A stretch of 64,000 nucleotides of DNA from a virus. The notes beneath the pieces were generated by a model. It was not told where the DNA came from. It did no database searches and was given only the letters and a program-made list of their open reading frames with translations. The stretch lies in the IMG/VR virus record IMGVR_UViG_3300045988_177924. One strand, given 5' to 3'. A program made the position numbers and the translations under genes. Positions 2,574 through 50,700 of this stretch are shown here, piece after piece (position 1 is the stretch's first letter; each line of letters opens with the position of its first letter).

Positions 2574-3836
2574 TTAATCTTGACTGTTAATGATATTTTG
2601 ACTTATATATAAGCAACTTCTTCTCGCTGAGATTCTGTTACAGTTTGATAATTTTGGTGTCTTATAGCCTCTCGGCATATAACTAAAATCTATCTGATTA
2701 TTAAATATGTCCATAAGTATAGCAAATCCAGAACTCATCTTTCCTTTGATGAAATACTCTTTTCCAAAGTATTTGACCTTATCAAATTTTCTAAATCCTT
2801 GAATCTTACCTACAGGGATTTTTTGTTCTCCACGAACGCCCCTAGTTAATTGATAATTTCCTTTGGATACTCTTCGCTTTTGATAGATAGTGTCATTGAG
2901 CGTGAACTCTTTACCACCGGAAGAGATGACACAAGCATCTATGAAATGGTCTTTTGGTAGATGGAGACTTTCACGATTCGTCTTAGTAACAAATCCAAAA
3001 GTCTCAATAGCGTCAGGATAGACCTTAAGCAACCGACTTCTGATGATACTCATGTGAGTTGCATACTTTAAATTCATCTTTTTAGGTTTTTTGTTTAGTG
3101 CAATTTTCCCACTATGGACTCCGGTGTGGCAATCTTCACATAAGGTTATGAGATTGCTCTCATCATCTGTTCCACTTTGACTTTTAAAGACGATGTGATG
3201 AACCTCTAATCTGGTATGTTTCTTACCGCAAATCTGGCAGGTATAACCATCACGATTAAGTATGGCTTCTCGTCTACTGGCCCATTCATAGTTAAAACCC
3301 TTTTGATACCCCCAGTGTTTGACCTTCTCCAAAATCAAACTTGGATTTTTCATCAGATGTGTATCAAACTGACTGACTTCAAGTACAATCTTTGAAATTG
3401 GGAGTATCTTTTTGCAGAACTCGATTTCATCAATGTGTGCTTGTACCTTGTGCTTGACGGAAGGTGGAAGCCTGTTTAATTTGGTAGAGTTATTACGGTT
3501 GAGGAATCTTGACTCACGATAACGAGTCTTTCTGTTGCGTCTATTCCTACGAGCCTGTCTCCTACTATCCATCTTCGACTTGATATCGTCTCGAAGTTTT
3601 ACATTTGACTGATACAAAACTTTGTTATTGCCAACACAAGCAGTACCAATATATTTTGAGCCTGTATCTTGTCCTAAGACAACGTCTTGTGTATACTCAG
3701 TGGAGTCATAAGTAAGTTGAATTGTAAATGGACATCTCTTTTTGACTTTAGCTTTGCCATCTTTGAGAAGCAATCTTGCGACCACATTCTCGCATGGCAT
3801 TAGCGGTTTCCCACTTTTTGAAATTACATAAACCAT
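2574..3836 (-). CDS. iscB: IscB, OMEGA-family RNA-guided RuvC/HNH nuclease (420 aa)
   Basis: All IscB modules are recognisable in order:
- PLMP domain: MVYVISKSGKPLMP...PFTIQLTY
- RuvC-I: VLGQDTGSKYIG
- Arg-rich bridge helix: RRQARRNRRNRKTRYRESRF
- RuvC-II: IVLEVSQFD
- HNH: CQICGKK..EVHHIV..NLITLCEDCH
- RuvC-III: KDHFIDACVIS
Catalytic residues appear intact. Confidence 0.9.
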   Translation of the reverse strand: MVYVISKSGKPLMPCENVVARLLLKDGKAKVKKRCPFTIQLTYDSTEYTQDVVLGQDTGSKYIGTACVGNNKVLYQSNVKLRDDIKSKMDSRRQARRNRRNRKTRYRESRFLNRNNSTKLNRLPPSVKHKVQAHIDEIEFCKKILPISKIVLEVSQFDTHLMKNPSLILEKVKHWGYQKGFNYEWASRREAILNRDGYTCQICGKKHTRLEVHHIVFKSQSGTDDESNLITLCEDCHTGVHSGKIALNKKPKKMNLKYATHMSIIRSRLLKVYPDAIETFGFVTKTNRESLHLPKDHFIDACVISSGGKEFTLNDTIYQKRRVSKGNYQLTRGVRGEQKIPVGKIQGFRKFDKVKYFGKEYFIKGKMSSGFAILMDIFNNQIDFSYMPRGYKTPKLSNCNRISARRSCLYISQNIINSQD

Positions 3837-4162
3837 AAATAAGTCTCCTTAAAATTCTCACTCTTAATGAGTGGTAACGCCTATCTTAACTCTGTTACCA
3901 AGTTAAGAATTGGTCTTCCTTTCGTCAATGTTAATTAGGCTTTTGCGACATACACACAGGGCTTTTCTTACTCCAACCCAACTTAATGTATATCGACAGA
4001 GCGACGGTCTAAGGCGACAACCGAAGGTGTCATGACCTAACTAACGTAGCTCTCATTTCTGAGGCTGAGACTTGTGAACTATTTAATGGAAGCCTACGAG
4101 TTTTTAGCTCATAGGTGGCTCACTAGGATTATTACATCACTTTACTCCTTTATATCTTATAT
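3837..4162 (-). ncRNA. putative omega RNA (HEARO-type guide RNA) of IscB
   Basis: About 325-nt ORF-free leader directly 5' of iscB, the canonical omega-RNA position.
Predicted helices on the minus strand: cctatgag/ctcgtagg, ggtaac/gttacc, cactc/gagtg, and a UUCG-loop hairpin.
A consensus promoter places the TSS near 4162. The exact 5' guide/scaffold boundary is not determinable by eye. Confidence 0.7.
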
Positions 4163-5906: not shown

Positions 5907-7541
5907 GTGCCTAATTTACAAAACCTATATCAAGTTTTTAAACTTAAATCTAGTTTTATTGTAGAGAACAACTTAAATATAGTTAATTATTCAAAATCTA
6001 AGGCAGCTCGCGATGGAGCGCTGGTATCAATTGGTGATAATCTGGTTTTTCAACAAATCAGAAAATATTATAATGATACCAGAAGTCATCGAGAGATTTT
6101 TAACGATGTCCAACAATTTCGTCGCGCTATAAGAGCCGCGAAGAGAGAGGGACGAACTAAGGAAGCTGGTATTCTTAATCGGTTTTTGACAGATGCGTTG
6201 TTTGTTAAAGATATTATTAACGTTGAAGTCGTGACCAAGAAAGAATATAAAGAATTGGCCAAGAATGGTTTTGACGTTAACGGTATTCATTATGTGAGAT
6301 TTTGTTGTGGTTCGGGACAAATGAGGCGCAACACTATTACCTTTATTAACGAAGCTCTTTATGACACCTTGTACAAAAACCTGATGTGCGGGTTGGACAC
6401 CAAGATTTCAGAAATGAATTTGGCGAAATATCATGCGTATTTTGCGTTGGCGTTTTCAAGTGTTATGTGGGTGCGAACTCCGAGGGTATGCGTAGTTAAG
6501 GATTTCTTTAATGTGGTGAAGGATCAATCGGTTGATTGGATTTGCCCCAATCCCGAGACTGGGAAAAAACAGATTAAAGAAAGAATAATGGATATCGAGT
6601 TAAACTGCGCTGATGGACAGGGGTTGATAGATCCTAAGTTTGCGGCGCTGTGGGCAGAAGATATGAATTTATCATATACGCCGTCGTCGTTCGTTGTCCG
6701 TAGCGTTTTTGTGAAGGGGTGCTTGGTTCCATTTGATTTTCGAGAATTTGGAGCTGTACACGGTATTGACTCAATTCGTGACCGGTGGGGAATCTCGCAT
6801 AGGTTAGAGGATATTGATGTTATATTGAGTGAATCTCAATTCAAGATGTATAAATATTATGTATCTTGGTATGAATATCAAAAGTATGTAGATGCGGCTG
6901 GTATTCAGTGGGGAGTTGCGAGATATAATAAAAAGTACGATGACGAATATGTGCTGGCTAATTATCAATATCTGCAAGTGTTGGATATCAATAAGGATGA
7001 TATTCTGGAATTGATTCAACCGACGATTGATTGGATTAAAAAGATTTGTTCAGGTGACCAATTGTATACAATGCTGTATATGTTGGGTTGCAAGGGCGAA
7101 CAGGTCAGTTTTAAAGAGCTGTACAATGGAGCGCAAAGCACGGCGTTGAGGGCTATTATTAAAAACCCGATAATGTTGGAAGACGCTCATGTACAGAAGA
7201 AAATATATCGCAATATTGCTGAGACGATAAACAAGGCGAAGATTGGTAAGATATGGGTGAGAGGAAATTATAGTTTTATGATTTCCGATCCCGTGGCACA
7301 GTGCCAATCGGCGCTTGGGTTGGAACCGGTGGGGTTAATTGGGCCTGACCAAGTGTATTCAAATTTCTGGAGGCAGCGAAGTGTGGGTTGTGTTGACCTG
7401 TGCCGCAGCCCGATGATTGACTCGCACGAACACAACCCTTGTAAAGTAGTATCGTCCGAAGATATGGATTATTGGTATCAATATATTAAGAGTGGAATCA
7501 TTTATAGTATATATGATACTTCAACATTACGACACTCCGAT
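5907..7541 (+). CDS. YonO / RdRP-family single-subunit two-barrel RNA polymerase, exon 1
   Basis: Family-type motifs CADGQGLID, VVRSVFVKGCLV (R..KG) and CRSPMIDSH. The ORF runs into an in-frame stop 4 codons after the proposed 5' splice site. Exon 1 ends ...RHSD with a U at 7541. Confidence 0.7.
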
Positions 7542-8587
7542 AGTGACTTAACATAATGGGTCCGTCGGATGGTAACATTCGATTGCTACTCAGTGAACCT
7601 GGCAATCCAGGGTGTGGGATAAAATCCTGCTAACAGTAAAAATCGTAAGTTTTGTTGGTCGGCCTGGAGAGAAATGCCGACAGAAGAAAAAGAATTCTAT
7701 GTCTATGAATGGATAAACAAAGACACGGGAGAGATTTTCTACGTAGGGAAAGGTAGTGGTTATCGTTGGAAACGTAAAACCGCCAGCTCTCGAAACAGAT
7801 ATTTCAATCGTTATGTCCAAAAATATCCAAATTGTGAACCTCGAAAAGTTTATGAAAATTTAACTGAAGAAGAGGCTTACAACAAAGAGCGAGAATTAAT
7901 AGCCGAATATAAAGCACAAGGCGTTCAGCTGGTTAACTTCGACGAAGGAGGACGACGAGGTGGACGCTCACCTGGAAAGCTAAATGGTATGTATGGGAAA
8001 ACACATACACCAGAAGCTCGAAAGAAAATAAGCGAAGCCAATTCCGATGGCCACAATGCGGGAATCAACAATACTCAATATGGAATTAGTCCAAGAGAGC
8101 GTATGAGTCCTGCGATATACGAGCAGTGGCGTACGGCACACAAGAAAGTAGTTGGTGCAGCAAATCCAAATTGCCATCATACAATTTTGTTTAATCTTGA
8201 ACATGAGATTGTGAAAGAGTTTGAATATACGATTGAATGTGCGCATTTTTTGGAAGAGCAAGAGCATTTAACTAATGGAATTGAGAATATTCGCTCGCAA
8301 ATCAAATATTACAGCAATACAGGACACGTTATGTTCAATAAGTATTATGTAAAAGTGATTCGGCCAACAAAACAAGACAATACTGTGCCAAGCCTCGTGA
8401 AAGAGGAAGGTTAAACGACTACCGAAAGCATATCAAGCGAGAAAAACGTTTGAAAAGAAGCAAGTAGGGTAGAGAACGGTGCAAATCCGGTTCTCGAAGT
8501 GCTGAGGGAACTATGAACGGTAAAAGAACATAGCTCTAAGAGATAGTCTACTCCCCTAATAAATATCGGGAAACCGAGGGTATAAAG
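7542..8587 (+). mobile_element. group I intron (1046 nt) carrying a GIY-YIG homing endonuclease ORF
   Basis: The 5' exon ends in U (7541) and the intron ends in G (8587). P1 pairs exon tccgaU (7536-7541) with the internal guide Gtcgga (7564-7569), with the U-G wobble at the splice site. Splicing restores one frame and creates the motif DVDGD. ORF-free structured arms lie at 7542-7673 and 8415-8587. Confidence 0.8.
7674..8414 (+). CDS. GIY-YIG homing endonuclease (I-TevI-like) with NUMOD3-type motif
   Basis: GIY-YIG region FYVYEW..GEIFYVGKGSGYRWKRK, the NUMOD3-like NGMYGKTHTPEARKKISEAN, and its own RBS GGAGAG. It lies wholly inside the intron. Confidence 0.85.
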   Translation: MPTEEKEFYVYEWINKDTGEIFYVGKGSGYRWKRKTASSRNRYFNRYVQKYPNCEPRKVYENLTEEEAYNKERELIAEYKAQGVQLVNFDEGGRRGGRSPGKLNGMYGKTHTPEARKKISEANSDGHNAGINNTQYGISPRERMSPAIYEQWRTAHKKVVGAANPNCHHTILFNLEHEIVKEFEYTIECAHFLEEQEHLTNGIENIRSQIKYYSNTGHVMFNKYYVKVIRPTKQDNTVPSLVKEEG

Positions 8588-9820
8588 GTTGACGGAGATG
8601 TAGTAATGTCCACGGATAATAAAATCTTTATCAAGGGTGCGCAAAAATGGCACAATGTCATCACATATGAGAAAGGTGCGGTGCCGGTTCAGAAGATTTG
8701 TTTAAAGAATTCAATCGCGACCGATATTCGCGGCTTGGGAACTGGGGTTGGAGGTTTTTCTAACTGCGCAACAATAATGCACGCAATGAAGGGAATTTTC
8801 CAAAAAGACACCCAAAAAGAACAAAGAGACGAACTCACTTTGCGTATTAAATTACTTCGAGAAATTGTTGGTCAAGAAATTGATAGAATTAAAGGAACAG
8901 CCGCGCCGGAGCTGCCAAAAGAGTGGAAAAAATTCATCCGAATTAATGATGATGACACTGATGCGGTTAAGGCTGATAAATATAAAAGAAATTCGATGGT
9001 TATTTCTAAAAAACCCTATTTCTTTAGATATTTATATCCAGAGCTAAACCAACAGTTCAAGCAATACGAAAACAGTTACAATATGGCGTCCAAAAACATG
9101 TTTGGTATTAAATTTAAAAAGCTTTTAACCAAACCTAATAAGTCAGAAGACGAGATGAATTTGGTACGCCGTTATCAAAAGTATTCGCCGCTAATCACCG
9201 CACCGTGCATAATGAATATATTGTGTAAGGAATTTGAAAATGTCGATTTTGATATTAATTTCAATAAAAACGCGGTAAGTATGTTGCCTACCTTTGAGGA
9301 TTGTTTTGAATTTGATCAAGAACGGTTTGCTATTGTTAAAGATTTGTATCGCAAATATACAGCGCGTAAACAAGTAAAAACCTTGGAGAGTATTGTTGAT
9401 AATATTGATTTACCGAATCGTGACGAATATGATGAGATTAGATTCGGGGCAATGACATTTATCAGAACGGAAATTCAAGAGGCGATTGAGTCTGCGTCGT
9501 TCAGTGGCAAAGAATTGCTTTACTACTGCCATTGTTTATCAAAAGAATACAAACAGTTTAATTGGGATTTTGCTTGGGACATTTTAGACGAAAGCGTGTT
9601 GGATTTAATCCCTCGTGGAATTGTTCAGATTCCCGTAAAAAATGAGACTGGATTTGAATACCTTGGTAATCGATACACTTTACAAGTAATTCACGAAGAT
9701 CGCGTCAGCGAGTTGTGTGATGATGACGATTGGAATCAAACGGCGTGGGAAGAAATTTTGGGGCAAGATTTAGATTTTGACTTCGATGCTGATAACTTAT
9801 TTGGAGGCGATGACGTATGA
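8588..9820 (+). CDS. YonO / RdRP-family RNA polymerase, exon 2
   Basis: The reading frame is open from 8540 and reads ...VDGDVVMSTDNK. Joined to exon 1 it gives HS-DVDGD-VV, the DxDGD metal-binding motif, 45 aa after the RSP motif. The spliced product is about 955 aa. Confidence 0.7.
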   Translation, partial: VDGDVVMSTDNKIFIKGAQKWHNVITYEKGAVPVQKICLKNSIATDIRGLGTGVGGFSNCATIMHAMKGIFQKDTQKEQRDELTLRIKLLREIVGQEIDRIKGTAAPELPKEWKKFIRINDDDTDAVKADKYKRNSMVISKKPYFFRYLYPELNQQFKQYENSYNMASKNMFGIKFKKLLTKPNKSEDEMNLVRRYQKYSPLITAPCIMNILCKEFENVDFDINFNKNAVSMLPTFEDCFEFDQERFAIVKDLYRKYTARKQVKTLESIVDNIDLPNRDEYDEIRFGAMTFIRTEIQEAIESASFSGKELLYYCHCLSKEYKQFNWDFAWDILDESVLDLIPRGIVQIPVKNETGFEYLGNRYTLQVIHEDRVSELCDDDDWNQTAWEEILGQDLDFDFDADNLFGGDDV

Positions 9821-35748: not shown

Positions 35749-37854
35749 ATGCCTATTTATATTTATAAAGGGAATAGTCAAATTAGCACAAATGCTGTAA
35801 GAAATGATAAAGTAGTTAAAGCAATTTACGCCAAAGAACAAGGACAAGAAGCTGTGTGTGTATGGGGTGGTGGCGTAAATCTTTTGCCTTTTGCGTACAC
35901 TAAAGATGCTACTTCGGTAACGATTACTGGATTAAGGACCGGTCTTACCTGGGAGCACTTAACCATTCCTGAAAGAGTTGAAAATTTACCAGTTACTCAA
36001 ATAACATCAAACGCATTTAAGGATAGCACAACACTTCAATCAATTGAATTGCCCAATTCCTTAATTAGTATTGGTAATGATGCTTTCAATGGCTGTACCG
36101 GGCTTACGAGCATCACAATCCCCGACAGTGTCACAAGCATAGGCTCTGATGCCTTCCGTGGTTGCACAGGTCTTACTAATATAATAATCCCTAATGGTGT
36201 GACGTATATCAGCGCTGCCTTTAGAGATTGTGCATCGCTTGAAAGCATAACGATTCCGTTTGTTGGCGCCTATGACCCAGAGGGGTTTGGATACGATGAG
36301 GTGTTTGGCTATATATTTGGATATACTACGACAAGCAGTGAGTCCTCGGTACCAGGAGCGACTTATCAATATTATTATGGTGGTTCTTCCAGGTATTTTT
36401 ATTACTACATACCATCAAGCATAAAGTCCGTAATTATAAGAGGGGGAAACATTCCATCCTGTGCTTTCAAAAATTGCACCGAACTCACAAGCATAACAAT
36501 CCCTGACAGCGTCACAAATATTGGCGATGATGCCTTCTCGGGTTGTACTAGTTTGACAAGCATAACGATTCCCGACAGCGTGACGAGCATCAGCTCTAAT
36601 GCCTTCGCGGGTTGCACGGGGCTTACGAGCATTACAATTCCTGATAGCGTAACGAGCATAGACCGCAATGCCTTCGATAATACAGCATGGTACAACAATC
36701 AGCCTGACGGTCTTGTATATGTGGGTAAATTCGCTTATAAGTACAAAGGCGAGATGTCAAGTGATACCTCGATTGTTTTAAAAGAAGGAACATTAGGTAT
36801 TAGTAATTATGCCCTTAGTGATTACAGAGGTCTTACGAGCGTTACAATCCCTGACAGCGTGACGAACATTGGTGATTCTGCCTTTTGGGCTTGCTCTAAT
36901 CTTACGAGCGTAACAATAGGCAACAGTGTGACAAGCATCGGCGATGATGCCTTCTCCGGTTGCACCAGGCTTACGAGCATAACAATCCCCGACAGCGTGA
37001 TGAGTATCGGCGATGATGCCTTCTATGGCACTACTTGGTACAACAATCAACCTGATGGACTTGTGTACGCAGGTAAAGTCGCTTATAAGTATAAAGGAAC
37101 TATGCCAAGCAACACCTCGATTGTATTAAACGAAGGAACATTGGGCATTGCCGATTTGGCCTTCTATGGTTGCAGCAGCTTGACGAGCATAACTATCCCA
37201 AACAGCGTGACGAGCATCGGCGAGCGTGCCTTCGATGGTTGCACCGGACTTACGAGTGTGACAATCGGAAATAGCGTGACGAGCATCGACGATGAGGCTT
37301 TCCGTAATTGCAGTGGTTTAACAAGCATCACAATCCCCGACAGCGTGACGAGCATCGGCGTTCAGGCCTTCTCTGATTGCACAGGGCTTACAAGTGTGAC
37401 AATAGGCAACGGTGTGAAGAGTATAGACTATTGGGCCTTTCTTCGTTGCACGGGGCTTACGAGTATCACGATCCCTGATAGTGTGACGAGTCTTGGCAAG
37501 CAGGTTTTCCAGGATTGTGCTGGGCTTACGAGCGTGACAATTGGAAACGGCGTTACGCGCATCAGAAGGTATGCCTTCGATGGTTGTACAAGTTTGACCA
37601 ATATAACGATTCCTGACGGTGTGACGAGCATCGACGTTGCCGCCTTCTGTGATTGTACTAGTTTGACACACATAACGATTCCAAACAGCGTGACGCGCAT
37701 TGGCGGAATAGTCTGCCGTAACTGCACTGGTCTTACAAACATTATATTTAAGGGTACAAAAGCACAATGGAATGCAATAACAAAGAGCACTTCGTGGAAC
37801 TCCAACACAGGTAATTATACGATCCATTGTACAGATGGAGATATACCGAAATAA
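35749..37854 (+). CDS. BspA-type leucine-rich-repeat (LRR_5) surface-binding protein, 701 aa
   Basis: About 20 tandem copies of L(T/E)SITIP(D/N)SVTSIG..AF.GC.. Confidence 0.85.
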   Translation: MPIYIYKGNSQISTNAVRNDKVVKAIYAKEQGQEAVCVWGGGVNLLPFAYTKDATSVTITGLRTGLTWEHLTIPERVENLPVTQITSNAFKDSTTLQSIELPNSLISIGNDAFNGCTGLTSITIPDSVTSIGSDAFRGCTGLTNIIIPNGVTYISAAFRDCASLESITIPFVGAYDPEGFGYDEVFGYIFGYTTTSSESSVPGATYQYYYGGSSRYFYYYIPSSIKSVIIRGGNIPSCAFKNCTELTSITIPDSVTNIGDDAFSGCTSLTSITIPDSVTSISSNAFAGCTGLTSITIPDSVTSIDRNAFDNTAWYNNQPDGLVYVGKFAYKYKGEMSSDTSIVLKEGTLGISNYALSDYRGLTSVTIPDSVTNIGDSAFWACSNLTSVTIGNSVTSIGDDAFSGCTRLTSITIPDSVMSIGDDAFYGTTWYNNQPDGLVYAGKVAYKYKGTMPSNTSIVLNEGTLGIADLAFYGCSSLTSITIPNSVTSIGERAFDGCTGLTSVTIGNSVTSIDDEAFRNCSGLTSITIPDSVTSIGVQAFSDCTGLTSVTIGNGVKSIDYWAFLRCTGLTSITIPDSVTSLGKQVFQDCAGLTSVTIGNGVTRIRRYAFDGCTSLTNITIPDGVTSIDVAAFCDCTSLTHITIPNSVTRIGGIVCRNCTGLTNIIFKGTKAQWNAITKSTSWNSNTGNYTIHCTDGDIPK

Positions 37855-41777: not shown

Positions 41778-44700
41778 ATGGAAGGAATGGACTATACTCC
41801 CATTTTAACAAGCGTTGGTTCGGCTGATAGTGCAATTATTGCGATGCTCGAAGATTCGCAACTTACCGCAGAGAATTTAGGGACGACAGCCGCATATTTA
41901 ACAGACACTTTAAAAACAACAACTGATAAACAGTTAGAGGCTGCAGTTCAACAACAAAAAATCACACAAGCCCAACAAAAGGCGCTTGCTTGGATTCGAG
42001 ATAATTTTGAACAATTTCCTGGTGAAGTAAGGAAAACTCTTAAAGACACTTTTTCGAGTTTGTCAACACAGATGGCCAAATTGCCTCCCGCTGTAGTCCA
42101 CGAAGCTACTCGAACGTTAGTGTTGCCGTTGGTTGATAAAATTATCGGTAGCTTAAACGATGAGGAAATTGGCCGCTTGGCTATGGCGAAGATAAATCAG
42201 GGTTTAGGTGTGGACAACTTAAACAAGTACTCTGCTGGTTATAGAGCAATCTTTGAACAAATTAACAAAGAGTACAAATCGGTTTTAAAAGATTCTACTG
42301 ACCTTAGTGAACAATTTAAAAAAGCCAAGAAAGCACTTGCTAACACCACTTTAGCGGACTTTTCATCCACGAGTGGCTCGCCAGCGGTGAATAGAGAAAT
42401 TGCCACATTGCTAGATATGGCAAAAAAGGCCAAACAACAAAAAAATCCCGATTACAATCCAACGATAACCAACAAGGATGTTACTGGTAGTGCTCGTAGA
42501 GTAACAAAGGTCGCAGAAAAAATACAACAAAACGCTTTCTCGACGCAGAAAGAAGCGGAAAGTATTATTCTTCAATATTTTGATCCCAAAAAATTGACTC
42601 AAGAGGGGAAAAATCGTGCCAAGCAAGCCGCGGAATATGCTGCTAATATGCAAAAAGCGGGATATGGAGTAAGCTTCGCCCAAGATAACGGTTCTCAAGA
42701 GATTAAAGTTATTGTTTATGACAAAAATAGTGTCAATGCTTTCGATAGAAAGGGAAGGGTAAATCGTCAAAATGCCGCCATTGCTTCTTTTGCGGTTGGG
42801 GGCTTAGATAAGCGAAATGACGATTATGTAATTGATCAAGCCAAGAGAGTGAAAGTGTCGGATGCCGAGGCTCAAAAATTTGTTGAGATGTCTCAACATG
42901 CTCCCAAAACAATCGCAAGTGCGCGTAAACGTATTGGGGACATTAAAAACGAAACTGTTCACAAATCAACCTCAAAGTTTGATCGACAAGACAACCTGTA
43001 TGGTGTTGGCGCAGATAAGGCGTTAGTTGAAAGCAGAACTCGTTTTGAGAATGAGGCGAAACGTTTAGCAAAATTTGAGAAAGATCAAGGTTCTACCATG
43101 ACCGAATCGGAACTCGTTAAGTTGTTTTCTCAAATGTTTGTTAGCTTTGCTGGATTTGGGGAGCGGGATATTGGCGTACAAAAGAGTTTACGAGACCAAC
43201 AAATGAAAAACGGTCTCTCAGACGCAGTTATACGAGAATTTAATAAAAACTTTTCTTGGTTACCTTTGGTTGGCTCAATGGGTGAGGAAGATTCTGGCCA
43301 CTATCGACTGTGGGGCGCCAAAGAAATGAAGGACAAAATGGCCCTCGTAACTCGTAAAATACAAGGTCGTGATATCCAGCCTTACGCTAAACAAGGTAAA
43401 CCCGAACGTGTACAAAACATAGAAGTTGACGTCAACCGTTTGTTTGATCAAGTTGACGATTTGCTTAATAGCGCAGACGACAAAAAACGCGAGGCGGCGC
43501 AACTCCTTGATAAAAATCGTGACTTAATCGAGGGTTTGGTTGATGGTATGGCCCTGGTGTCGAAAGATCAAATTCAAAATTTGGACACAATTCGAGAGGG
43601 CGTATCGGTTAAGATTTCTAAAGCCGATTTGTTCAAATACGGGTTAAAAGGCAAGAAGAAGAAAAGTGCCGAAAACAGACGAAAAGCCTATCAAAAACTT
43701 TTGGCGGCCGAAGGCCGAGAGGCCACGGATGATAATGTTGATTTTTATATTGATCCTGAGACAGGAGATGTAACCTTAACCGGGAAAGAGGTGGTTAGGG
43801 CGCATACGGGTACAAAAGCCAATAGTGCCTACGGTAACTTACGTGTCGTTTATCGTGAAGTAGTTCCAGAAGTTATTAAGGCTATTTCCACAATAACAGG
43901 AGTTGAATTAATGCCCGAAAAAGACTCGCGCGCGACTGTGGTGTCAGCAAGAGAAGAAACCAGTTCAAGAAATATCGGACCGCTTGTAACTAGGGCTATA
44001 GACAACGCGATAAATGAACTAGATAAGAGTCAGATTGAAGCCAGTGTGAACAAACTTGGTACCACAAACCTGTCGACCAACATTGGACAAGCCTTAGTTG
44101 ACGTTTTGTTGAAAAAATTGAGCTTTAGCGATGCTTTGGACAAGTACGTGGGCTCAAACGTATCGGCTCGTACCAAATTTACGGGTGAAACCTTATATCT
44201 GTTAGATGAGTTGACGGGCGGAAAAAATGGATATGAAATTGTTGATGGGAAATTACAAACTAAGGCCCTTGCGTCTAGCTTTACTGATGTTGTTGGCGCA
44301 CGTTATGGTGAATATGAACCAAGAGGTGCGGCCAGCTTGCCAACAAACTGGGAAGTAGAAGATCTTGAACGTTCGGCTCGTGCAGCCGGTGTGGAAATAA
44401 CCCCCGAAAATAGTGATTTTTTACGCACTGTTCAACTTGTTGCTTTTGGAGCAACCGCAAACGATATCGAAGAAAAAAAGAAACTTATACGAGACTATAA
44501 TGAACATATTGAGCGTCAAGCTCAACTAATAGGTTCGCGAGCGGGGTTAAACCCTGATTATATCAATCGAAATGCGGGTGTTAACACAATCGTTGTTGGC
44601 TCAAAAGACATATATGGCAATCAAGCACACTTTATTGACATAAACGCACTTCGTCGCACTGAGAAATTAGACAACGGACAAAGTGATCCCGAACAAAGAG

Positions 44701-47700
44701 GTGAAACCATTTGGGGTAAACTTGATGAGCAGTTGCAATCTATAGACCAAACTCAAGCAAAAATTTTGGTTGATTTGGGCGCGGATATGGGAGAAGCGCG
44801 ATATTTCGATTTGGGCAAATACACTGATGAAATTGGAGATTATAACGAAAGTTTAGAAAGTTTACTTGACGCGGTTCGAACGGGGAAAACAGCGTCCGAA
44901 AAGAAAGACTTGCTAACCGCTGTCTTAAAGGCAGAGGCTTACAACTTTGAAAACACTGGCGGGGCTGTTAATGAACAATTCTTAGCAAAAATGGCTCGCC
45001 ACCAAGAAGAGGCAAGGAAAGCGGCTCAAGAGAGATATGATAAGAAATATAAGAAACGTTTAGCGTACTCTACGTTTTATGGCGAAAATACCAATATTGT
45101 AGCGACAGATACTACGAATGAAGTTGACGCCTTGCAAGAACGCATGAAGGATAGCGGTACTTATGTCGATAAAGAACATATTAGAGCAAGTGTCGCGCTT
45201 GGGTTGAATGCCTATAAGGGTGATGATAATGATGCTTTTGTAAAAAACTTAGCGCAATATTTGCAACTTTTTGCAGAACAGGGGCAAGACAAAGCTATCG
45301 AATCAGCTCTCGCCAATCAAAACTTTAAGAATTTTGCCGAAATGGTCGATTTTGCGACCAATATTTTTACCACGGGAACCTCAGAACATGAGAATTTTTA
45401 TGGCGGCACGAATCCTATTTTAAGTCGCGGTGTTGAAGCTGTATTGGGGAGGCAGCCTTATAGCCAAGCCATTAACTTACAATACGGAGGGTTGGTCTTT
45501 GGTAAAGAGGGCCTAGGAACAAACGTAATCGAAAGTAACCGTGGTCTCAACAAATTGATCATGGGGGATTTTGACGGTGATAAATTATACACCGCTTTAG
45601 TTCAACTTCGACAGGCTGCCCAGCTAATAGGCGCTACTTCCGAACAGTTTGGCTGGTTAGACGAAACCTTGGAAAGAGTCAAACGTTATAATGAATTTTT
45701 ATATAGAGTTATAGGAAAGAATATTCCGGCTATTACCTCATCCGACGCCGACTCATCGGTAATTCTTGATTTGGCGAAAAATCAAGTGTTAAACGATAAG
45801 CAAATGGCAATAGTGCGTTCCTATCAAAACCAGGCGAAAGACAAAACGGGTAACTGGTCCAACGTTGCAAAAGGTGCTCGAAATGTTTTAGAGTTACAAA
45901 AGTTGGGTACGGGTGCTGTTGTAGGCGGAGATTTGAATTCAACTATCGACTTTATTAAGGGGTCGTTTGTTTTTGAAGCACTAGAACAAGCTGAGCAAAA
46001 TGCGATTTCTTCTAAGAAACTTTGGGACGTTGCAATCCAAGATATGCAAACCACGCTTGGTTCCGATTTGGATAAAGTTGATGAACAAACGTTCGCTGAG
46101 CAACTTGACAAGTCTTTTAATATCGCGATTAACAAAGTTATTGATGAAGTTTACAAAAATAAAGCAAATGTGAACGATGTGATTCAAGCCGGTGCGGAAC
46201 AAGGAATCTATAAAGACAACAAATTAGAGGCCTGGCGTTCCCAACGAATATTGGGCACTTTGGCGATGAGCAAAAACGTTTCAGCGTACAAAGCTTTGGA
46301 AGAGTCTGGTATTTCCCCAGGTGACTTGGAAGCAATTGCTCAAATTGTTAAACCGGGCCGGAATTGGGAAAGTTTCAGAGGTCAACAAGGTGACTTTCAA
46401 AGTCAGTTACTGGACCAACTGAATCAAGGCGCTTTTAACCAATTTGGCTTTAGTGTAGACACATTAAAGGCATTTGGCGGCAATTTAGATGATGATTTTT
46501 TAGCGCAGGCTAAACAAGCACACGGGCGATTCCGTGAAGAAACAGGTCCTACAGGGCTTGGTACGGCAGCTGGAGAACTTATCAAAGCTATTAACAAATT
46601 AACGGTAGCAGAGACAAAAGTTGATAAGACAGGATTCGACCCTAAAATTGTTAGTATATTAGAAGAAATTCGAGACTTGCTTGCTAAACAAGGCCGAGGC
46701 GGTCTTAACGGACGTTATGGGCAGACCTATATGACACCAACGGGTATTGTCTCGAGTTTAAATCCTTCTTCGATCGATGAATCGGCTTGGGGTTATTTAC
46801 AGGGAAGAATGTTAGGGTTTAAGGGTTCAAATATCGATTGGACAAAACTAAATGTCAAAGAAAAGGCAAAACAGTTTGGCTACGCGGATATAGAACAATT
46901 TAAACAAGATAGAGAAGGTGTAGTTAGTACGTTTATAGGAACACTAGCTCACGCATTTTCTGAAGGTGAGATTAAACAGGATCCTGAAATTTTTAAACAA
47001 GCAACAAAGGATTTTACACAAGCTTTATCAATGCTGTTTGATAAAAAGGATGTCGACAAATATTTACTTGTTGCAAATGAATATGCACAAAGGGGTTATA
47101 ACGCATACGACCGATTAGCTGGACCAGACGCGTATCGTGCGGCGGAAGAACGGGTGCGATTAAATGAGAATTCTGATGTGGTAAAAGGTAAGACTGACGC
47201 CATTTACACAAGTAAGCGTATGGCTGAAAGTGGTCAAGAATATCAAGTGTTTAATGTTGTTGACTTTAAAAACAAGGCTAAAGTTGATGCTAATAGTATA
47301 GAACAGGTCTTGATTTATGTCGAGATGTACCGCCGTATTAAACAAGATTTGGATAAATTGGTGCGAGAAATTGGAGAAGACGCTGCTTTGGAAAAAATGA
47401 GCAAGCAGACACTCTTGTCGGCTGATACATTACGCCAATTACACGAATCGTTGGATGTTAGTGCTCAAATTGTCCAAAATTATCAAGGGAAAACCAAAGT
47501 GTATGATGTCGCAAATGTTCCCAGAGACATTGCGCAAGCTCTGGTGGAGGGGCGTTCTTTAACGGCAGAACAACAAAAGATTATAAATAATGCTGCCACA
47601 GCGTCGTCGCCACTGACACAAACCATGTCGCCTGATTTCCAAAAAAAATATTATAAGCTCACCGGTGAAATTTTTGGGGTAGATGGGTATAGTAAAAATA

Positions 47701-50700
47701 CGGTTGATTATGAGAAAAAAATAGCTGAACAAAAAGCTCTTGAGGAACAATTAAATAAAGTTCAAACAGAGCAAGGCGAAGAATCAACCGTGTTTAAGAA
47801 ACTCACACAATATTACAACAATCTTCTCGAAGAAATTAAGGCTCTGGAAGAAATTCGCAAACGACAGGTTCAAGAATTAAAACTTACCAAAGGTATGAAG
47901 GGGTCGGTGACACGCACGACTCGCAATCAAGTTCAACAACTTCTCGAAACGGGAGATTTACACTTTGGGTATGAAAAAATTCTAAAAGATGATGAGAAAC
48001 AGCGCTTACTTGCCCAAAAGCAACGAGAAGCCGTATTGAACCAGTACAAACGCTATAACGATCAGATTGCTAAGACGGAAAAGGACATGTTGGTTTTGGA
48101 CAAACAATCTAGAACCACACCGAGTAAACTCGAAAGAGGAATTCAAGCCGATAGAGGACAAATTGATATACTAAAGGCTGAACTCAAAGAGTTAGTTGAA
48201 AAACGTAATCTGCTTGTTGAAAACAATAAATTGACACAGGCAGAAACCGCCGAAGCCGATGCTCAACTTCAAACCAAGAGAGAATTAAACAGGCTTAAGG
48301 TTGCTGGAATGGCCAAGGGCGCCGGGAATTGGTTAGATGTTATTGGAAGTGGTGTTAAAAATACCATTACGAGAATGTTCGATTACAATGGTGTATATCG
48401 TATTCTGAATCGTATAACACAAGGTTTGCGTCAGCTTGTGCAACAGGTAAATGAGCTTGATGTTGCAATGTTCAACTTGCAAGTTGTTAGTGGTGACAGT
48501 CGTCAAGAAGTTTCAGCATTAATTAATGATTATGGCAAACTTGCTCAACAATTACACACTACTACAACTCAAATTGCTGCTTCGGCAAACGAGTGGCTTA
48601 GACAAGGTTATGAAGCAGGACAGGCTAACGAGCTGATCAAAGCTTCAACATATTTGAGCAAATTAGGCATGATTGAGGCTGGCCAAGCTACAACTTATTT
48701 GACGTCTATGATCAAGGGCTTCAAATTAGAGGCTGCCGACGCAGTTAATATTGTTGACAAGTTAACCGCTGTTGATATGGAAGCGGCTGTTAGCGCTGGT
48801 GGTATTGCTGCAGCAATGCAAAACGTTGCAACAACTGCTCAGTTAGCGGGGTTATCCATTGATAAAACAATTGGTTACTTGTCAACCATGATTGAAGTTA
48901 CCCAACGAGACCCTTCCTCTATGGGTATGGCTTTGCGCACGGTTTTAGCGCGTTATGGTAATGTTAAAGCAGGGACTTTCACAAATATGACGGGTATAGA
49001 AAGTTCCGATGCTGATTTAGAAAATGTTAACGATATTGAAAAAGTTTTAGGCAAAGTAGGAATACGCATTCGCGAAAATGCACAAGAGTTTAGAGATTTC
49101 GGAGACGTAATTGATGAACTGAGTGAAAAGTGGCAAAAATACGATTCTGTTACTAAAAACGCGATTGCTACTGCTATGGCTGGTGTTCGTCAACGTGAAT
49201 CTTTCTTGGTTTTAATGGAAAACAAAGATAGGGCTGACGAGTTGGAAGATGTGTCATCTTTATCAAAGGGCACCGCCGACACAAAATATGCTGCTTACCA
49301 ACAGACGTTAATGGCAGCAAAGGCCGATTTACAGACGTCACTACAAAGTTTGGCAAAATCAATACAAGACAGCGGATTACTTATTGCCTTTACCAAGTTG
49401 GCTAATATTTTGATTAAAACGGTTGTTCCTGGGTTTAACGCGCTTGCTTCTATGCTATGGGCGCGAAATTCGTTTAAACTAACAGAACAAATCAAATATA
49501 GTTTAAACCAACGTAAAACAACTTCCGCAGCCTCTCTCGGATTTTTTGCACAAAAAACACAACAAGAAGCATTAAGAAGACAAGAGTGGCAACAGGAGTT
49601 TTATAAAAAGAAAGAGGGCACTAATCAAACGTATGTTGACAGGTTATTGGGGAAAACATCACCCAAGACTGCGCTTTCGTCGTTTACTAATGTGTTGAAT
49701 GATGCGTCTACAGCAGTACGTGGTTTTACGGGTGCCATAAATGGCTCACCGGTTCAGTCCACAACCTCTTCTCAAGCACCATCGAAGACGCCTGTGGTAG
49801 ATCCAAGGCGTCTGGTGTATACCGAGGCCGGCGAGTGGCCTAGTGTAGATGAATACGCCAAAGGTTCTAGGTTTAGACGCCTTAATAGGGCAAAAATTCG
49901 TAAAGATTTACAAAGCGGTCGCATAACCACTGTTGACGCGAGCAATATTAAACAAAAATATAAACAAATAGCAAAAGAAGATCGACAACAAGCCAAAGCA
50001 CTTTTAGGCCAGCAAATTACAGGGAACGTAGCAGGTGCGGTTGGCGCCGGTGTCACCTCTGCATTAACCACGGGGTTTAACCAAGAGGGTTCCGCAGGGG
50101 CGAAGGCGACTGCTGGAGTTACAGCTGGTGCTTTGACAGGTGTTGGTGCATTATTTGGTCCAATGGGAGCGGTTATAGGTTCCACTTTGGGTTCAATATT
50201 GGGACCGGTTTTTGCTAAATTGGTTGACAAAGAAGAAAACGAACGTAAACAACGTGCAGAAGCAGCTCAGAAACAATTGGACGCTTTAAATTCATTAAAC
50301 AATACATTTGATGAAGTGCATGATTATACCGAGAAAGAGTATTTAACTTCAGAGGCCATTTTAGCTATTAAAGAGCGAGTTGACTCTATTGACGAGCAGA
50401 TGGCTACAAGTGGTTTAAGTTTCGACGATTATCTTAAACAAGCTGCTACCCAACTTGGATTGGGTGAGGATTTTCAAACTATAGAAGATATTCGTGAGCT
50501 ATTAACCGCTGCTGATGAGAAAACTCGTCAAAAGGCACAAGAGGTGTTTGACTTAGCCCAAAGTATGGCCAAAGTACAAACAACGCAAGAGTCCAAGGCA
50601 GTGTCGGATATGTCATATGATGAGAAGAGAGTTTATTGGCGGGCATTAGACAAAGAGTATATTAAACAAGCGTTTATTACATCTGGTCTGGAGCAAATGT

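What the first reader, a model, noticed from the sequence alone, without database searches (positions are those of the whole stretch)
5907..9820. YonO/RdRP-type phage RNA polymerase gene split inside its DxDGD catalytic motif by a GIY-YIG-bearing group I intron
ORF 5907..7556 stops 4 codons after ...TLRHSD. ORF 8606..9820 is open upstream to 8540 and reads ...VDGDVV.

Splicing U7541 to G8588 obeys the group I rules: the 5' exon ends in U, the intron ends in G, and a 6-bp P1 (tccgaU:Gtcgga) carries the U-G wobble. It produces HS-DVDGD-VV, the metal-binding loop of two-barrel RNAPs, 45 aa after an R-S-P motif (compare beta-prime RAP...NADFDGD).

The intron encodes an I-TevI-like GIY-YIG/NUMOD3 endonuclease.

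An intron targeting the catalytic codons of a non-canonical phage RNAP is unusual. It also makes RNAP production splicing-dependent.
Basis: partly seen in the sequence, partly recalled or inferred. Interest (0 to 1): 0.7.

Follow-up and report, generated by a model that had tools for sequence, protein, structure and literature searches.

The report
Mobile intron splitting phage RNA polymerase

Summary
Closely related viral contigs (97% DNA identity) carry the same gene uninterrupted. Aligned to the window, they put the insertion at 7549..8588, so the 5' exon ends in U7548 (not U7541) and the intron ends in G8588.

Splicing there gives a 957-aa protein reading HSDSDFDGDVV. It is 99.3% identical, without gaps, to the intronless homologue. 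The intron lies in the Phe codon of DFDGD.

The protein is a YonO/RdRP-type two-barrel RNA polymerase (Pfam RdRP; model matches RDR2, QDE-1 and crAss gp66).

The intron belongs to a large family of Firmicute and gut-phage group I introns. Its structure is backed by strong covariation: 90% of cells paired, and 34 of 59 pairs changed on both sides. Rfam's model misses this copy but accepts two family members.

Alleles exist with no intron, with a 314-nt ORF-less intron, and with the intron plus a GIY-YIG/NUMOD3 endonuclease gene in the P5 loop. Intron-bearing alleles share identical flanks, which looks like co-conversion.

Other YonO-like genes are interrupted 1 nt upstream or 5 nt downstream. 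A published precedent exists: the PhiPA3 RNAP intron. I call it a new member of a known kind, of modest interest.

The parts
5907..7548 (+). Exon 1 of the YonO-like RNA polymerase gene (GTG start). It ends ...CAC TCC GAT AGT GAC T, i.e. H S D S D plus the first base of the Phe codon.
   Evidence: Colinear with intronless alleles L008/L009 up to 7548/7549. Pfam RdRP PF05183 E=1.6e-10. phrog_8308.
7549..8588 (+). Group I intron, 1,040 nt. It starts UAAC and ends in G8588 (the terminal G).
   Evidence: It is absent from L008-L011. It is present at the same site, without an ORF (313-314 nt), in L012-L016. Covariation supports the fold. A second sample carries the same ORF-bearing intron.
7536..7569 (+). 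P1 hairpin. Exon strand: UCCGAU (7536-7541), AGU, GACU (7545-7548). Loop: 7549-7558. Internal guide strand: GGUC (7559-7562), C, GUCGGA (7564-7569). The wobble pair at the splice site is U7548-G7559.
   Evidence: Read from the sequence. Family members have the same layout: U, then UAAC..., then the guide sequence.
7589..7595 (+). P3, 5' strand (CUCAGUG). It pairs with 8500-8506.
   Evidence: 21 distinct fully paired sequence variants across the family. Helix 1 is 96% paired, with 3 pairs changed on both sides.
7598..7628 (+). Two small hairpins between P3 and P4: CCUGG-CAAU-CCAGG (7598-7611) and GGGAU-AAA-AUCCU (7616-7628), separated by the conserved GGUGU. My labels are Ha and Hb.
   Evidence: 24 distinct Ha variants keep the stem. 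Helices 2-4 are 92-100% paired, and 8 of their 10 pairs are changed on both sides (one is invariant, one departs only by an unpaired cell). No such hairpins are in the T4 td layout as I recall it (from memory).
7633..7637 (+). P4, 5' strand (ACAGU). It pairs with 8382-8386 (ACUGU).
   Evidence: Helix 5 is 100% paired, with 2 pairs changed on both sides. The Rfam alignment of family member L187 assigns the same element.
7649..7662 (+). 5' strand of a 14-bp helix (extended P5). It pairs with 8360-8373 and closes the loop that holds the endonuclease gene.
   Evidence: All 14 positions pair. In ORF-less alleles a short P5 hairpin sits here instead.
7658..7681 (+). Possible hairpin GUCGGC/GCCGAC that encloses the GGAGAG ribosome-binding site and the AUG of the endonuclease gene. 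It cannot form together with the top of the 14-bp helix.
   Evidence: Read from the sequence only. Any role in limiting translation is inference.
7674..8414 (+). Intron-encoded homing endonuclease gene, 246 aa: an N-terminal GIY-YIG domain followed by NUMOD3. Its last ~55 nt overlap P5', P4', P6 and J6/7.
   Evidence: phrog_314 homing endonuclease 4.5e-17. NUMOD3 22.5 bits against a cut-off of 20.4. The family profile hits PDB GIY-YIG 9u75 at E=1.2e-9 and the I-TevI DNA-binding domain 1i3j at E=0.023.
8360..8373 (+). 3' strand of the 14-bp P5 closing helix.
8382..8410 (+). P4 3' strand (8382-8386) and the P6 hairpin CC-AAG-CCUC-GUGAAA-GAGG-AA-GG (8388-8410).
   Evidence: Helices 5-7 are 97-100% paired; all 6 P6 pairs (helices 6-7) and 2 of the 5 P4 pairs (helix 5) are changed on both sides. 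The Rfam alignments place P6 here.
8417..8421 (+). P7, 5' strand (GACUA, within the R element GUUAAACGACUA). It pairs with 8544-8548.
   Evidence: Family-wide compensatory variants: GACTA/TAGTC 67, GATTA/TAATC 6, GACCA/TGGTC 4, GATCA/TGATC 4, GAGCA/TGCTC 3.
8434..8495 (+). P7.1 (8434-8452) and P7.2 (8472-8495), the peripheral hairpins typical of subgroup IA introns.
   Evidence: Helices 9-11; compensatory changes between the window, L012 and L016. The names follow the usual IA nomenclature (from memory).
8500..8506 (+). P3, 3' strand (UGCUGAG).
8511..8533 (+). P8 hairpin (CUAUG...CAUAG).
   Evidence: Helix 12 is 65% paired in the MAFFT alignment, which is poor in this region.
8544..8588 (+). 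P7 3' strand (UAGUC, 8544-8548, within the S element), the P9 hairpins (8554-8580) and the 3' tail ending in G8588.
   Evidence: Window 8536-8590 is 94-100% identical to the 3' ends of introns in 210-259 phage records. One is the Romulus terminase intron, annotated 'group I intron protein'. The exact 20-mer occurs in at least 120 IMG/VR stretches.
8589..9820 (+). Exon 2: UU GAC GGA GAU GUA GUA ..., i.e. (F)DGDVV... to the stop codon.
   Evidence: Colinear with the intronless alleles from 8589. The spliced product is 957 aa and 99.3% identical to P0001 over 955 aa without gaps.

Best explanation
Window 5907-9820 is one gene for a YonO-type single-chain two-barrel RNA polymerase. It is interrupted at 7549..8588 by a mobile group I intron of the Firmicute-phage IA-like kind.

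Shown:
- Where the insertion lies, to the base.
- That removing it restores a reading frame colinear with uninterrupted alleles, and the invariant D-x-D-F-D-G-D motif.
- That the intron RNA has a conserved group I core (P1, P3-P9, P7.1/P7.2) kept by compensatory changes.
- That alleles with no intron, with an ORF-less intron and with an ORF-bearing intron coexist in near-identical phages.
- That intron-bearing alleles share identical flanking exon sequence.

Inferred:
- The transcript splices itself, with guanosine attacking after U7548 and exon ligation after G8588. This yields a 957-aa polymerase whose catalytic loop is complete only after splicing.
- The 246-aa GIY-YIG/NUMOD3 protein, encoded in the P5 loop, cuts intronless alleles of co-infecting relatives near the DFDGD codons.
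- Repair from the intron-bearing genome copies the intron together with about 25-45 nt of upstream and about 10 nt of downstream exon sequence (homing with co-conversion).
- The ORF-less 314-nt form is the same ribozyme before gaining, or after losing, the endonuclease gene.
For: Host gene:
- Intronless relatives L008/L009 (97% nt identity) align to window 5907-7549 and 8589-9811 contiguously.
- The uninterrupted protein P0001 is 99% identical and reads HSDSDFDGDVV.
- The corrected spliced product is 957 aa, 99.3% identical, with no gaps.
- Pfam RdRP E=1.4e-10, above its cut-off, and phrog_8308 spans the junction.
- SPbeta YonO aligns across the junction in one piece.
- AlphaFold model pLDDT 84.9. 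Foldseek gives RDR2 1e-17, QDE-1 1e-13 to 1e-15 and crAss gp66 2.5e-4.
- R500, P502, D545, D547, D549, G550 and D551 are invariant in 44 homologues.

Intron:
- L012-L016 carry the same intron, ORF-less, at the same site.
- Covariation: 90.3% of cells paired against 74.6% when shuffled (0/500) and 30-44% when slid; 34 of 59 pairs are changed on both sides.
- P7 and P3 variants recur family-wide.
- Two family members pass Rfam RF00028's gathering score (59.2 and 54.0 bits).
- The 3' 50 nt are 94-100% identical to annotated phage group I introns.
- A 14-bp helix closes the ORF loop.

Endonuclease and mobility:
- The endonuclease family profile hits a solved GIY-YIG protein at E=1.2e-9 and the I-TevI DNA-binding domain at E=0.023; NUMOD3 is found in 34 of 41 homologues.
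- Flanks are identical from -43 to +10 in all intron-bearing alleles, including L016, whose exons are only about 80% identical. Intronless alleles differ at -14, -11, -8, -5, -2, +8 and +11.
- An independent sample has the same ORF-bearing intron.
Against: - No RNA data, so splicing itself is not shown.
- Rfam's group I model gives only 12.5 bits (E=3.4) for this copy and nothing for its ORF-less relative.
- The P10 pairing is weak in the window copy.
- Two hairpins between P3 and P4 do not fit the textbook layout I know.
- The GIY-YIG Pfam model alone is below threshold for this one sequence (E=0.41), and TIGR01453 is far below its cut-off.
- Endonuclease activity and its target are inferred only from the allele pattern.
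Confidence: 0.9

Rival explanations
1. One reading: the intron is 7542..8587/8588, spliced after U7541 using the 6-bp P1 tccgaU/Gtcgga, giving HSDVDGDVV.
For: The 6-bp complementarity with a terminal U-G exists. The product would still contain a DxDGD string.
Against: - Bases 7542-7548 (AGTGACT) are homologous to exon sequence in intronless alleles (AGTGATT).
- All 44 homologues have D-x-D-x-D-G-D with invariant D545, D547 and D549, so this product would delete two residues.
- The stated coordinates break the frame.
Confidence: 0.02
2. There is no splicing. The gene is permanently split by an inserted endonuclease cassette, and two polypeptides (549 aa, and about 404 aa starting at ATG 8606) assemble into the enzyme, as happens with some phage genes split by free-standing endonuclease genes.
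For: - Gene callers and the c-st annotation treat the halves as separate ORFs.
- Intron-bearing alleles read GGAGAT, an SD-like string, 8 nt before ATG 8606, where intronless alleles read GGCGAC.
Against: - The break would separate the first from the second and third catalytic aspartates. It would also drop F548-D551 from both fragments, because exon 1 runs into a stop after DLT and the second ORF starts at M554.
- A 314-nt ORF-less insert at the same site, with a conserved and covarying ribozyme fold, has no role in that model.
- The exons stay 97-99% identical to uninterrupted alleles, with the motif codons intact.
Confidence: 0.03
3. The intron is real but has decayed in this copy. It no longer splices, so this phage's RNA polymerase gene is a pseudogene.
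For: No RNA evidence. P10 is weak. The Rfam score is low.
Against: - All core helices are intact in the window copy, and differences from L012-L016 are compensatory.
- An independent sample is 96.4% identical over 1,172 nt without gaps.
- Both exons and the endonuclease ORF are free of frameshifts or stops.
Confidence: 0.05

Closest known systems
PhiPA3 gp210 intron in the virion RNA polymerase beta-like subunit gene gp211/209 (Birkholz et al., Science 2024, PMC11620839)
   Same: A putative group I intron with a homing endonuclease gene interrupts a non-canonical phage RNA polymerase gene right next to conserved active-site aspartates. The endonuclease targets the intronless homologue of a related co-infecting phage.
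   Different: - There the host gene is the beta-like subunit of a multi-subunit jumbo-phage enzyme and the endonuclease is an HNH nickase.
- Here the host gene is a single-chain YonO-type enzyme, the site is the beta-prime-like DFDGD triad, and the endonuclease is a GIY-YIG/NUMOD3 protein.
- Activity and competition effects were tested there and not here.
Phage T4 td intron with I-TevI
   Same: - A phage group I intron of the IA kind with P7.1/P7.2.
- A GIY-YIG endonuclease with an I-TevI-type DNA-binding region (profile hit to 1i3j).
- It sits in conserved codons of an enzyme gene and homes with co-conversion of flanks.
- The P4-P6 sequence is very similar (from memory: td ...AACGGGGAACC...CAAUCCCGUGCUAAA).
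   Different: - td carries its ORF in the P6 region, while here the ORF is in the P5 loop and runs on into P4', P6 and J6/7.
- This family has two extra hairpins between P3 and P4.
- The host gene differs.
- The td comparison rests on my memory of the td sequence, not on a tool result.
Group I introns of Herelleviridae and other Firmicute phages (Twort, K, Romulus/Remus terminase, Bastillevirinae; PMC11878797)
   Same: - The last ~50 nt (P7', P9 and tail) are 94-100% identical.
- Romulus annotates the adjacent ORF as 'group I intron protein'.
- phrog_314 GIY-YIG endonucleases are reported inside such introns.
- The published work also found that Rfam and GISSD models often miss one side of these introns.
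   Different: Those introns sit in terminase, DNA polymerase, ribonucleotide reductase, thymidylate synthase and lysin genes. I found no paper reporting one in a YonO-type RNA polymerase gene.
SPbeta YonO (Forrest et al. 2017, PMC5467207)
   Same: Homologous single-chain two-barrel RNA polymerase (28% identity over residues 65-607). Its aspartate triad was shown to be catalytic by a 3D>3N mutant.
   Different: yonO of SPbeta is uninterrupted (one tblastn piece across the motif). The window protein belongs to a distinct, larger clade (phrog_8308) from gut metagenome phages.

Membership tests
Group I intron | The 5' exon ends in U, which forms a U-G wobble with the internal guide sequence in P1. 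| tested here: met
   U7548-G7559 lies within GACU/GGUC, and the helix continues with UCCGAU/GUCGGA. The position is fixed by intronless alleles.
Group I intron | The last intron nucleotide is G. | tested here: met
   G8588. The 1-nt alignment ambiguity (T7549 = T8589) is resolved by this rule and by family members that all start UAAC.
Group I intron | A conserved core of P3-P8 with the P3/P7 pseudoknot, kept by compensatory changes. | tested here: met
   - 90.3% paired, 34 of 59 pairs changed on both sides, 0/500 shuffles reach this, slid controls 30-44%.
- P7: five compensatory variants.
- P3: 21 variants.
Group I intron | Match to Rfam RF00028 at its gathering score (50 bits). | tested here: not met
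   - Window copy: 12.5 bits, E=3.4.
- ORF-less relative L012: no match at E<=1.
- Two members of the same sequence family do pass: L187 59.2 bits and L169 54.0 bits.
- Published work reports the same weakness of the model for phage introns.
Group I intron | Precise excision restores a reading frame colinear with intronless alleles. | tested here: met
Group I intron | Guanosine-dependent self-splicing. | not testable with these tools
   Needs an in vitro transcript or RNA from infected cells.
GIY-YIG homing endonuclease (I-TevI-like) | GIY-YIG catalytic domain with the conserved Tyr/Tyr, Arg, Glu and Asn. | tested here: met
   - The single sequence is below Pfam's threshold (PF01541 E=0.41).
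- A profile of 41 homologues hits the solved GIY-YIG protein 9u75 at E=1.2e-9 over residues 9-101.
- E72 and N88 are invariant.
- The motifs FYVYEW, IFYVGKG and YRWKRK can be read in the sequence.
GIY-YIG homing endonuclease (I-TevI-like) | A C-terminal DNA-binding region with NUMOD3 / I-TevI-type elements. | tested here: met
   - NUMOD3 22.5 bits against a cut-off of 20.4.
- 34 of 41 homologues have it.
- The profile hits the I-TevI DNA-binding domain 1i3j at E=0.023.
GIY-YIG homing endonuclease (I-TevI-like) | NCBIfam TIGR01453 'group I intron endonuclease' at its cut-off. | tested here: not met
   16.1 bits against a cut-off of 56.
GIY-YIG homing endonuclease (I-TevI-like) | Cleaves the intronless allele and drives homing. 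| not testable with these tools
   Indirect only: the presence/absence polymorphism and the shared flanks of intron-bearing alleles.
YonO-like / cellular-RdRP-type two-barrel RNA polymerase (Pfam PF05183) | Pfam RdRP match above its gathering score. | tested here: met
   41 bits against a cut-off of 23.8.
YonO-like / cellular-RdRP-type two-barrel RNA polymerase (Pfam PF05183) | The DxDGD aspartate triad and the upstream R-x-P. | tested here: met
   The motif is complete only after removal of 7549-8588: D547-F-D549-G-D551, with R500-S-P502. All are invariant in 44 homologues.
YonO-like / cellular-RdRP-type two-barrel RNA polymerase (Pfam PF05183) | Fold similar to solved members (QDE-1, RDR2, crAss gp66). 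| tested here: met
   The model is of the 99%-identical intronless homologue (pLDDT 84.9, pTM 0.80). Foldseek: 7w82 1.1e-17, 7y7t 8.7e-15, 2j7n 3e-13, 6vr4 2.5e-4; TM about 0.45 for the RDR2 and QDE-1 matches, 0.23 for 6vr4.
YonO-like / cellular-RdRP-type two-barrel RNA polymerase (Pfam PF05183) | DNA-templated RNA synthesis. | not testable with these tools
   Shown only for SPbeta YonO (PMC5467207).

The most novel reading that the evidence does not exclude
The aspartate-triad codons of YonO-type phage RNA polymerases may be a recurrent homing hot spot. Within six bases there are three distinct insertion positions: D|F in L121, one base into the Phe codon here, and DxD|GD in MT835481, c-st, CB473P3, L136 and L183. 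At least two unrelated ribozyme lineages use them.

The endonuclease could act as a competition weapon between co-infecting gut phages, by knocking out a rival's transcription enzyme, as shown for PhiPA3 gp210.

The ribozyme family itself has two covarying hairpins between P3 and P4, is mostly missed by Rfam, and occurs in at least 120 viral contigs. It may be a group IA subclass that has not yet been classified.
Probability: 0.35. Interest if true: 0.5.

Novelty: new member of a known kind. Interest (0 to 1): 0.33.

Why it matters
1. Annotation. Gene callers split this polymerase into two 'hypothetical proteins' plus an unnamed ORF. The same happens in Clostridium phage c-st ('YonO N-ter only / C-ter only') and Enterocloster phage CB473P3. 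Recognising the intron restores a complete catalytic enzyme.

2. A worked example of the homing cycle in uncultured gut phages. Alleles with no intron, with an ORF-less intron and with an endonuclease-bearing intron coexist, and co-conversion tracts are visible.

3. Detection. The standard Rfam model misses most of a large phage intron family. A family-specific model would recover many split genes.

4. A testable idea. By analogy with PhiPA3, the endonuclease may disable a competitor's RNA polymerase gene.

None of this changes what is known in principle about group I introns.

Tried and rejected
- Rfam scan of the whole window at gathering scores: only a HEARO RNA elsewhere.
- Rfam at relaxed E-value on 7450-8700 and on the ORF-less relative: 12.5 bits and nothing. 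Rfam on five relatives' loci: nothing.
- Sequence search of the polymerase profile against PDB: no hits. The fold search was needed.
- Single-sequence search of the endonuclease against PDB: only noise. The profile worked.
- The look-up of encoding contigs for P0001: not on record. I used the search for related loci instead.
- My first regular expression for P3 was one base out of register and was corrected. My first 'contiguous' test for the motif was too lax and was corrected.
- Pfam on the L121 protein: no hit. The profile-profile comparison showed homology.
- I considered building a covariance model. I dropped the idea because a full-length model would exceed the calibration limit and cannot encode the P3/P7 pseudoknot.

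Full report
OBSERVATION. The frame of the last one is open back to 8540 and reads ...VDGDVV. The complementarity tccgaT (7536-7541) / Gtcgga (7564-7569) is also there.

The stated junction is not consistent. Joining 7541 to 8589 gives 19 stops. The peptide HSDVDGDVV requires exon 2 to begin at 8588.

WHERE THE INSERTION REALLY IS. A protein search with the joined exons found an uninterrupted 960-aa protein, P0001, that is 99% identical. About 775 further homologues (776 proteins at E <= 1e-10) were found; the 120 listed are 883-1,096 aa long and cover 91-100% of the query, so they span the junction region.

Its DNA was found in IMG/VR contigs. L008 and L009 are 97% identical in nucleotides. 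They align to window 5907-7549 and to 8589-9811 at adjacent positions with a 1-nt overlap. The inserted segment is therefore 7549..8588 (1,040 nt). The 5' exon ends in U7548 (GAC U|UU GAC GGA GAU) and the insert ends in G8588.

Splicing there gives a 957-aa protein that is 99.3% identical to P0001 over 955 residues without a gap.

THE HOST GENE.
- The joined protein matches Pfam RdRP PF05183 at 41 bits (cut-off 23.8), and phrog_8308 matches across the junction.
- tblastn finds SPbeta YonO (28% identity, residues 65-607, one piece) and other phage 'RNA-dependent RNA polymerase' genes.
- In an alignment of 44 homologues, R500, P502, D545, D547, D549, G550 and D551 are invariant. These are the R-x-P and Asp-triad positions shared by two-barrel polymerases according to PMC2919709. 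The triad of YonO was shown to be catalytic (PMC5467207).
- An AlphaFold model of P0001 (pLDDT 84.9, pTM 0.80) matches maize and Arabidopsis RDR2 (E=1e-17 to 1e-15), Neurospora and Thielavia QDE-1 (1e-15 to 1e-11) and the crAss-like phage phi14:2 virion RNA polymerase (2.5e-4).

The 'YonO/RdRP-type two-barrel RNAP' reading is therefore supported. The intron sits one base into the Phe codon of D547-F-D549-G-D551, between the first and second catalytic aspartates.

THE INSERT IS A GROUP I INTRON.

(a) Allele series. L012-L016 carry the same insert at the same site but only 313-314 nt long. They have window 7549-7640 and 8379-8588 with a short hairpin in place of 7641-8378. L008-L011 have none. 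A Logan contig from another sample (L206) has the 1,040-nt form, 96.4% identical over 1,172 nt.

(b) Homology.
- Window 8536-8590 is 94-100% identical to the 3' ends of inserts in 210-259 phage records from Staphylococcus, Listeria, Enterococcus and Bacillus phages, in terminase and other genes.
- Among these, the Romulus record annotates 'group I intron protein' just upstream.
- The exact 20-mer AATATCGGGAAACCGAGGGT occurs once in the window and in at least 120 IMG/VR stretches.

(c) Structure. Comparison of ORF-less members gave this layout:
- P1
- an optional P2
- P3
- two small hairpins
- P4, P5, P4'
- P6
- P7, then P7.1 and P7.2
- P3'
- P8
- P7'
- P9

Family-wide counts support it:
- P7 occurs as GACTA/TAGTC (67), GATTA/TAATC (6), GACCA/TGGTC (4), GATCA/TGATC (4) and GAGCA/TGCTC (3).
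- P3 occurs in 21 distinct fully paired versions.
- The first small hairpin occurs in 24 versions.

On an 8-sequence alignment, with the structure taken from the window copy:
- 90.3% of cells pair, against 74.6% when shuffled (0 of 500 shuffles reach it) and 30-44% when the partner is slid.
- 34 of 59 pairs show changes on both sides.

The structure was derived from one of the aligned sequences, which inflates the 'paired' figure somewhat. The double changes are not affected by that.

(d) Rfam. RF00028 gives only 12.5 bits for the window copy and nothing for L012. Two members of the same family pass its gathering score: L187 at 59.2 bits and L169 at 54.0 bits. For L187, Rfam's alignment agrees with my P4-P6, P7, P8 and P9 assignments. 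It forces a poorly paired P3 next to P4, where covariation supports the distal partner. A 2025 study of Bastillevirinae introns reports the same weakness of the Rfam and GISSD models for phage introns that have endonuclease loops (PMC11878797).

In the window copy the endonuclease gene replaces the short P5 hairpin. A perfect 14-bp helix (7649-7662 with 8360-8373) closes the loop. The ORF reads on through P5', P4', P6 and J6/7 to a stop at 8412-8414.

THE INTRON ORF.
- Alone it matches phrog_314 'homing endonuclease' (4.5e-17) and NUMOD3 above threshold. GIY-YIG is matched only weakly, at E=0.41. TIGR01453 is far below its cut-off.
- A profile of 41 homologues hits a solved GIY-YIG protein (9u75, E=1.2e-9, residues 9-101) and the I-TevI DNA-binding domain (1i3j, E=0.023). 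NUMOD3 is present in 34 of 41 homologues.
- The motifs FYVYEW, IFYVGKG, YRWKRK, E72 and N88 are visible.

The 'I-TevI-like GIY-YIG/NUMOD3' reading is supported. Its activity is untested.

SIGNS OF HOMING. All intron-bearing alleles are identical from -43 to +10 around the site. This includes L016, whose exons are otherwise only about 80% identical to the window and resemble the intronless L010/L011. Intronless alleles differ at -14, -11, -8, -5, -2, +8 and +11, all at synonymous sites. This is the pattern expected from co-conversion of flanking markers during endonuclease-initiated repair. The changed bases may also protect the intron-bearing allele from being cut.

THE SITE IS USED REPEATEDLY. 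Of 83 YonO-like loci examined, 69 are uninterrupted at the motif and 8 are interrupted. The other 6 alignments stop before the motif. Five of the 8 are at the window's position. Three are 5 nt downstream, at DxD|GD:
- MT835481, with the same intron family and its ORF in P6.
- Clostridium phage c-st, with a ~300-nt ORF-less intron of a different lineage (RF00028 25.4 bits, E=1.5e-4). This explains its 'YonO N-ter only' annotation.
- Enterocloster phage CB473P3.

The scan for the intron tail added L136 and L183/L197 at DxD|GD. It also added L121/L149/L202, a YonO-like gene (hhalign probability 99.8%) with DFDSD and the intron one base upstream of the window's position.

COMPARISON WITH WHAT IS KNOWN.
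- Group I introns with GIY-YIG or HNH endonuclease genes in the most conserved codons of phage enzyme genes are classic (T4 td/I-TevI; Twort, SPO1 and Bastille-type phages).
- For RNA polymerases there is direct precedent. The PhiPA3 intron with the HNH endonuclease gp210 interrupts a beta-like subunit gene right after two conserved aspartates and harms the co-infecting PhiKZ (PMC11620839). An intron in 201phi2-1 gp273/274 was also noted (PMC2919709).
- I found no report of an intron in a YonO-type gene. The paper library is incomplete, so this is not proof of absence.

VERDICT. This is a real, well-supported mobile group I intron in the catalytic motif of a YonO-type RNA polymerase gene. It is a new member of a known kind. 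Its interest is modest and lies mainly in annotation, in the complete allele series, and in the poorly modelled intron family.

Noticed in passing
window 2574-4123 (- strand): A 420-aa ORF (2574-3836) with RRXRR (9.5e-59) and HNH (2.7e-13) domains lies directly downstream of a HEARO/omega RNA (RF02033, 94.6 bits, 3910-4123). This looks like a phage-borne IscB-type RNA-guided nuclease unit, about 1.8 kb from the polymerase gene.
   Followed up: partly
L003 (Enterocloster phage CB473P3) 2345-3524: Its YonO-like gene appears to hold two introns. One follows ...CDFD, with exon 2 starting GDAIYSTNN. The second follows ...GQLFQQNELD, inside the invariant GQEIDRIKG motif, with exon 3 starting GIIAKDMPKNW. 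The record annotates five small 'hypothetical proteins' there.
   Followed up: partly
L002 (Clostridium phage c-st) 3160-3473: The genes annotated 'YonO-homolog (N-ter only)' CST179 and 'hypothetical' CST178 are separated by an ORF-less insert of about 300 nt at MDMD|GD. It matches Rfam Intron_gpI end to end at 25.4 bits (E=1.5e-4), so this is probably one spliced gene. The ribozyme lineage differs from the window's.
   Followed up: partly
L121 6545-6852 (also L149, L202): A more distant YonO-like gene (hhalign probability 99.8% against the family profile, no Pfam hit) has DFDSD instead of DFDGD. It carries the same intron family inserted GAT|TTT, one base upstream of the window's position.
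   Followed up: partly
window 8594-8608: Intron-bearing alleles read GGAGAT for the Gly-Asp codons, an SD-like string 8 nt before ATG 8606. Intronless alleles read GGCGAC. This is probably just co-converted sequence, but it could allow translation of a C-terminal fragment from unspliced RNA.
   Followed up: no
window 8360-8414: The last ~55 nt of the endonuclease ORF overlap ribozyme elements P5', P4', P6 and J6/7. These are present with nearly the same sequence in ORF-less alleles. The ORF therefore seems to have entered the P5 loop and read on to the first stop in the core.
   Followed up: partly
L183 10269-11841: A ROOL RNA (RF03087, 303.8 bits) sits among six tRNA genes in a viral contig that also has an intron-split YonO-like gene.
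   Followed up: no
window 35749-37854 and 41778-53105: A 701-aa BspA-type leucine-rich-repeat protein (LRR_5, 3e-142) and a 3,775-aa ORF lie downstream. Most other large ORFs tested have no Pfam match.
   Followed up: no
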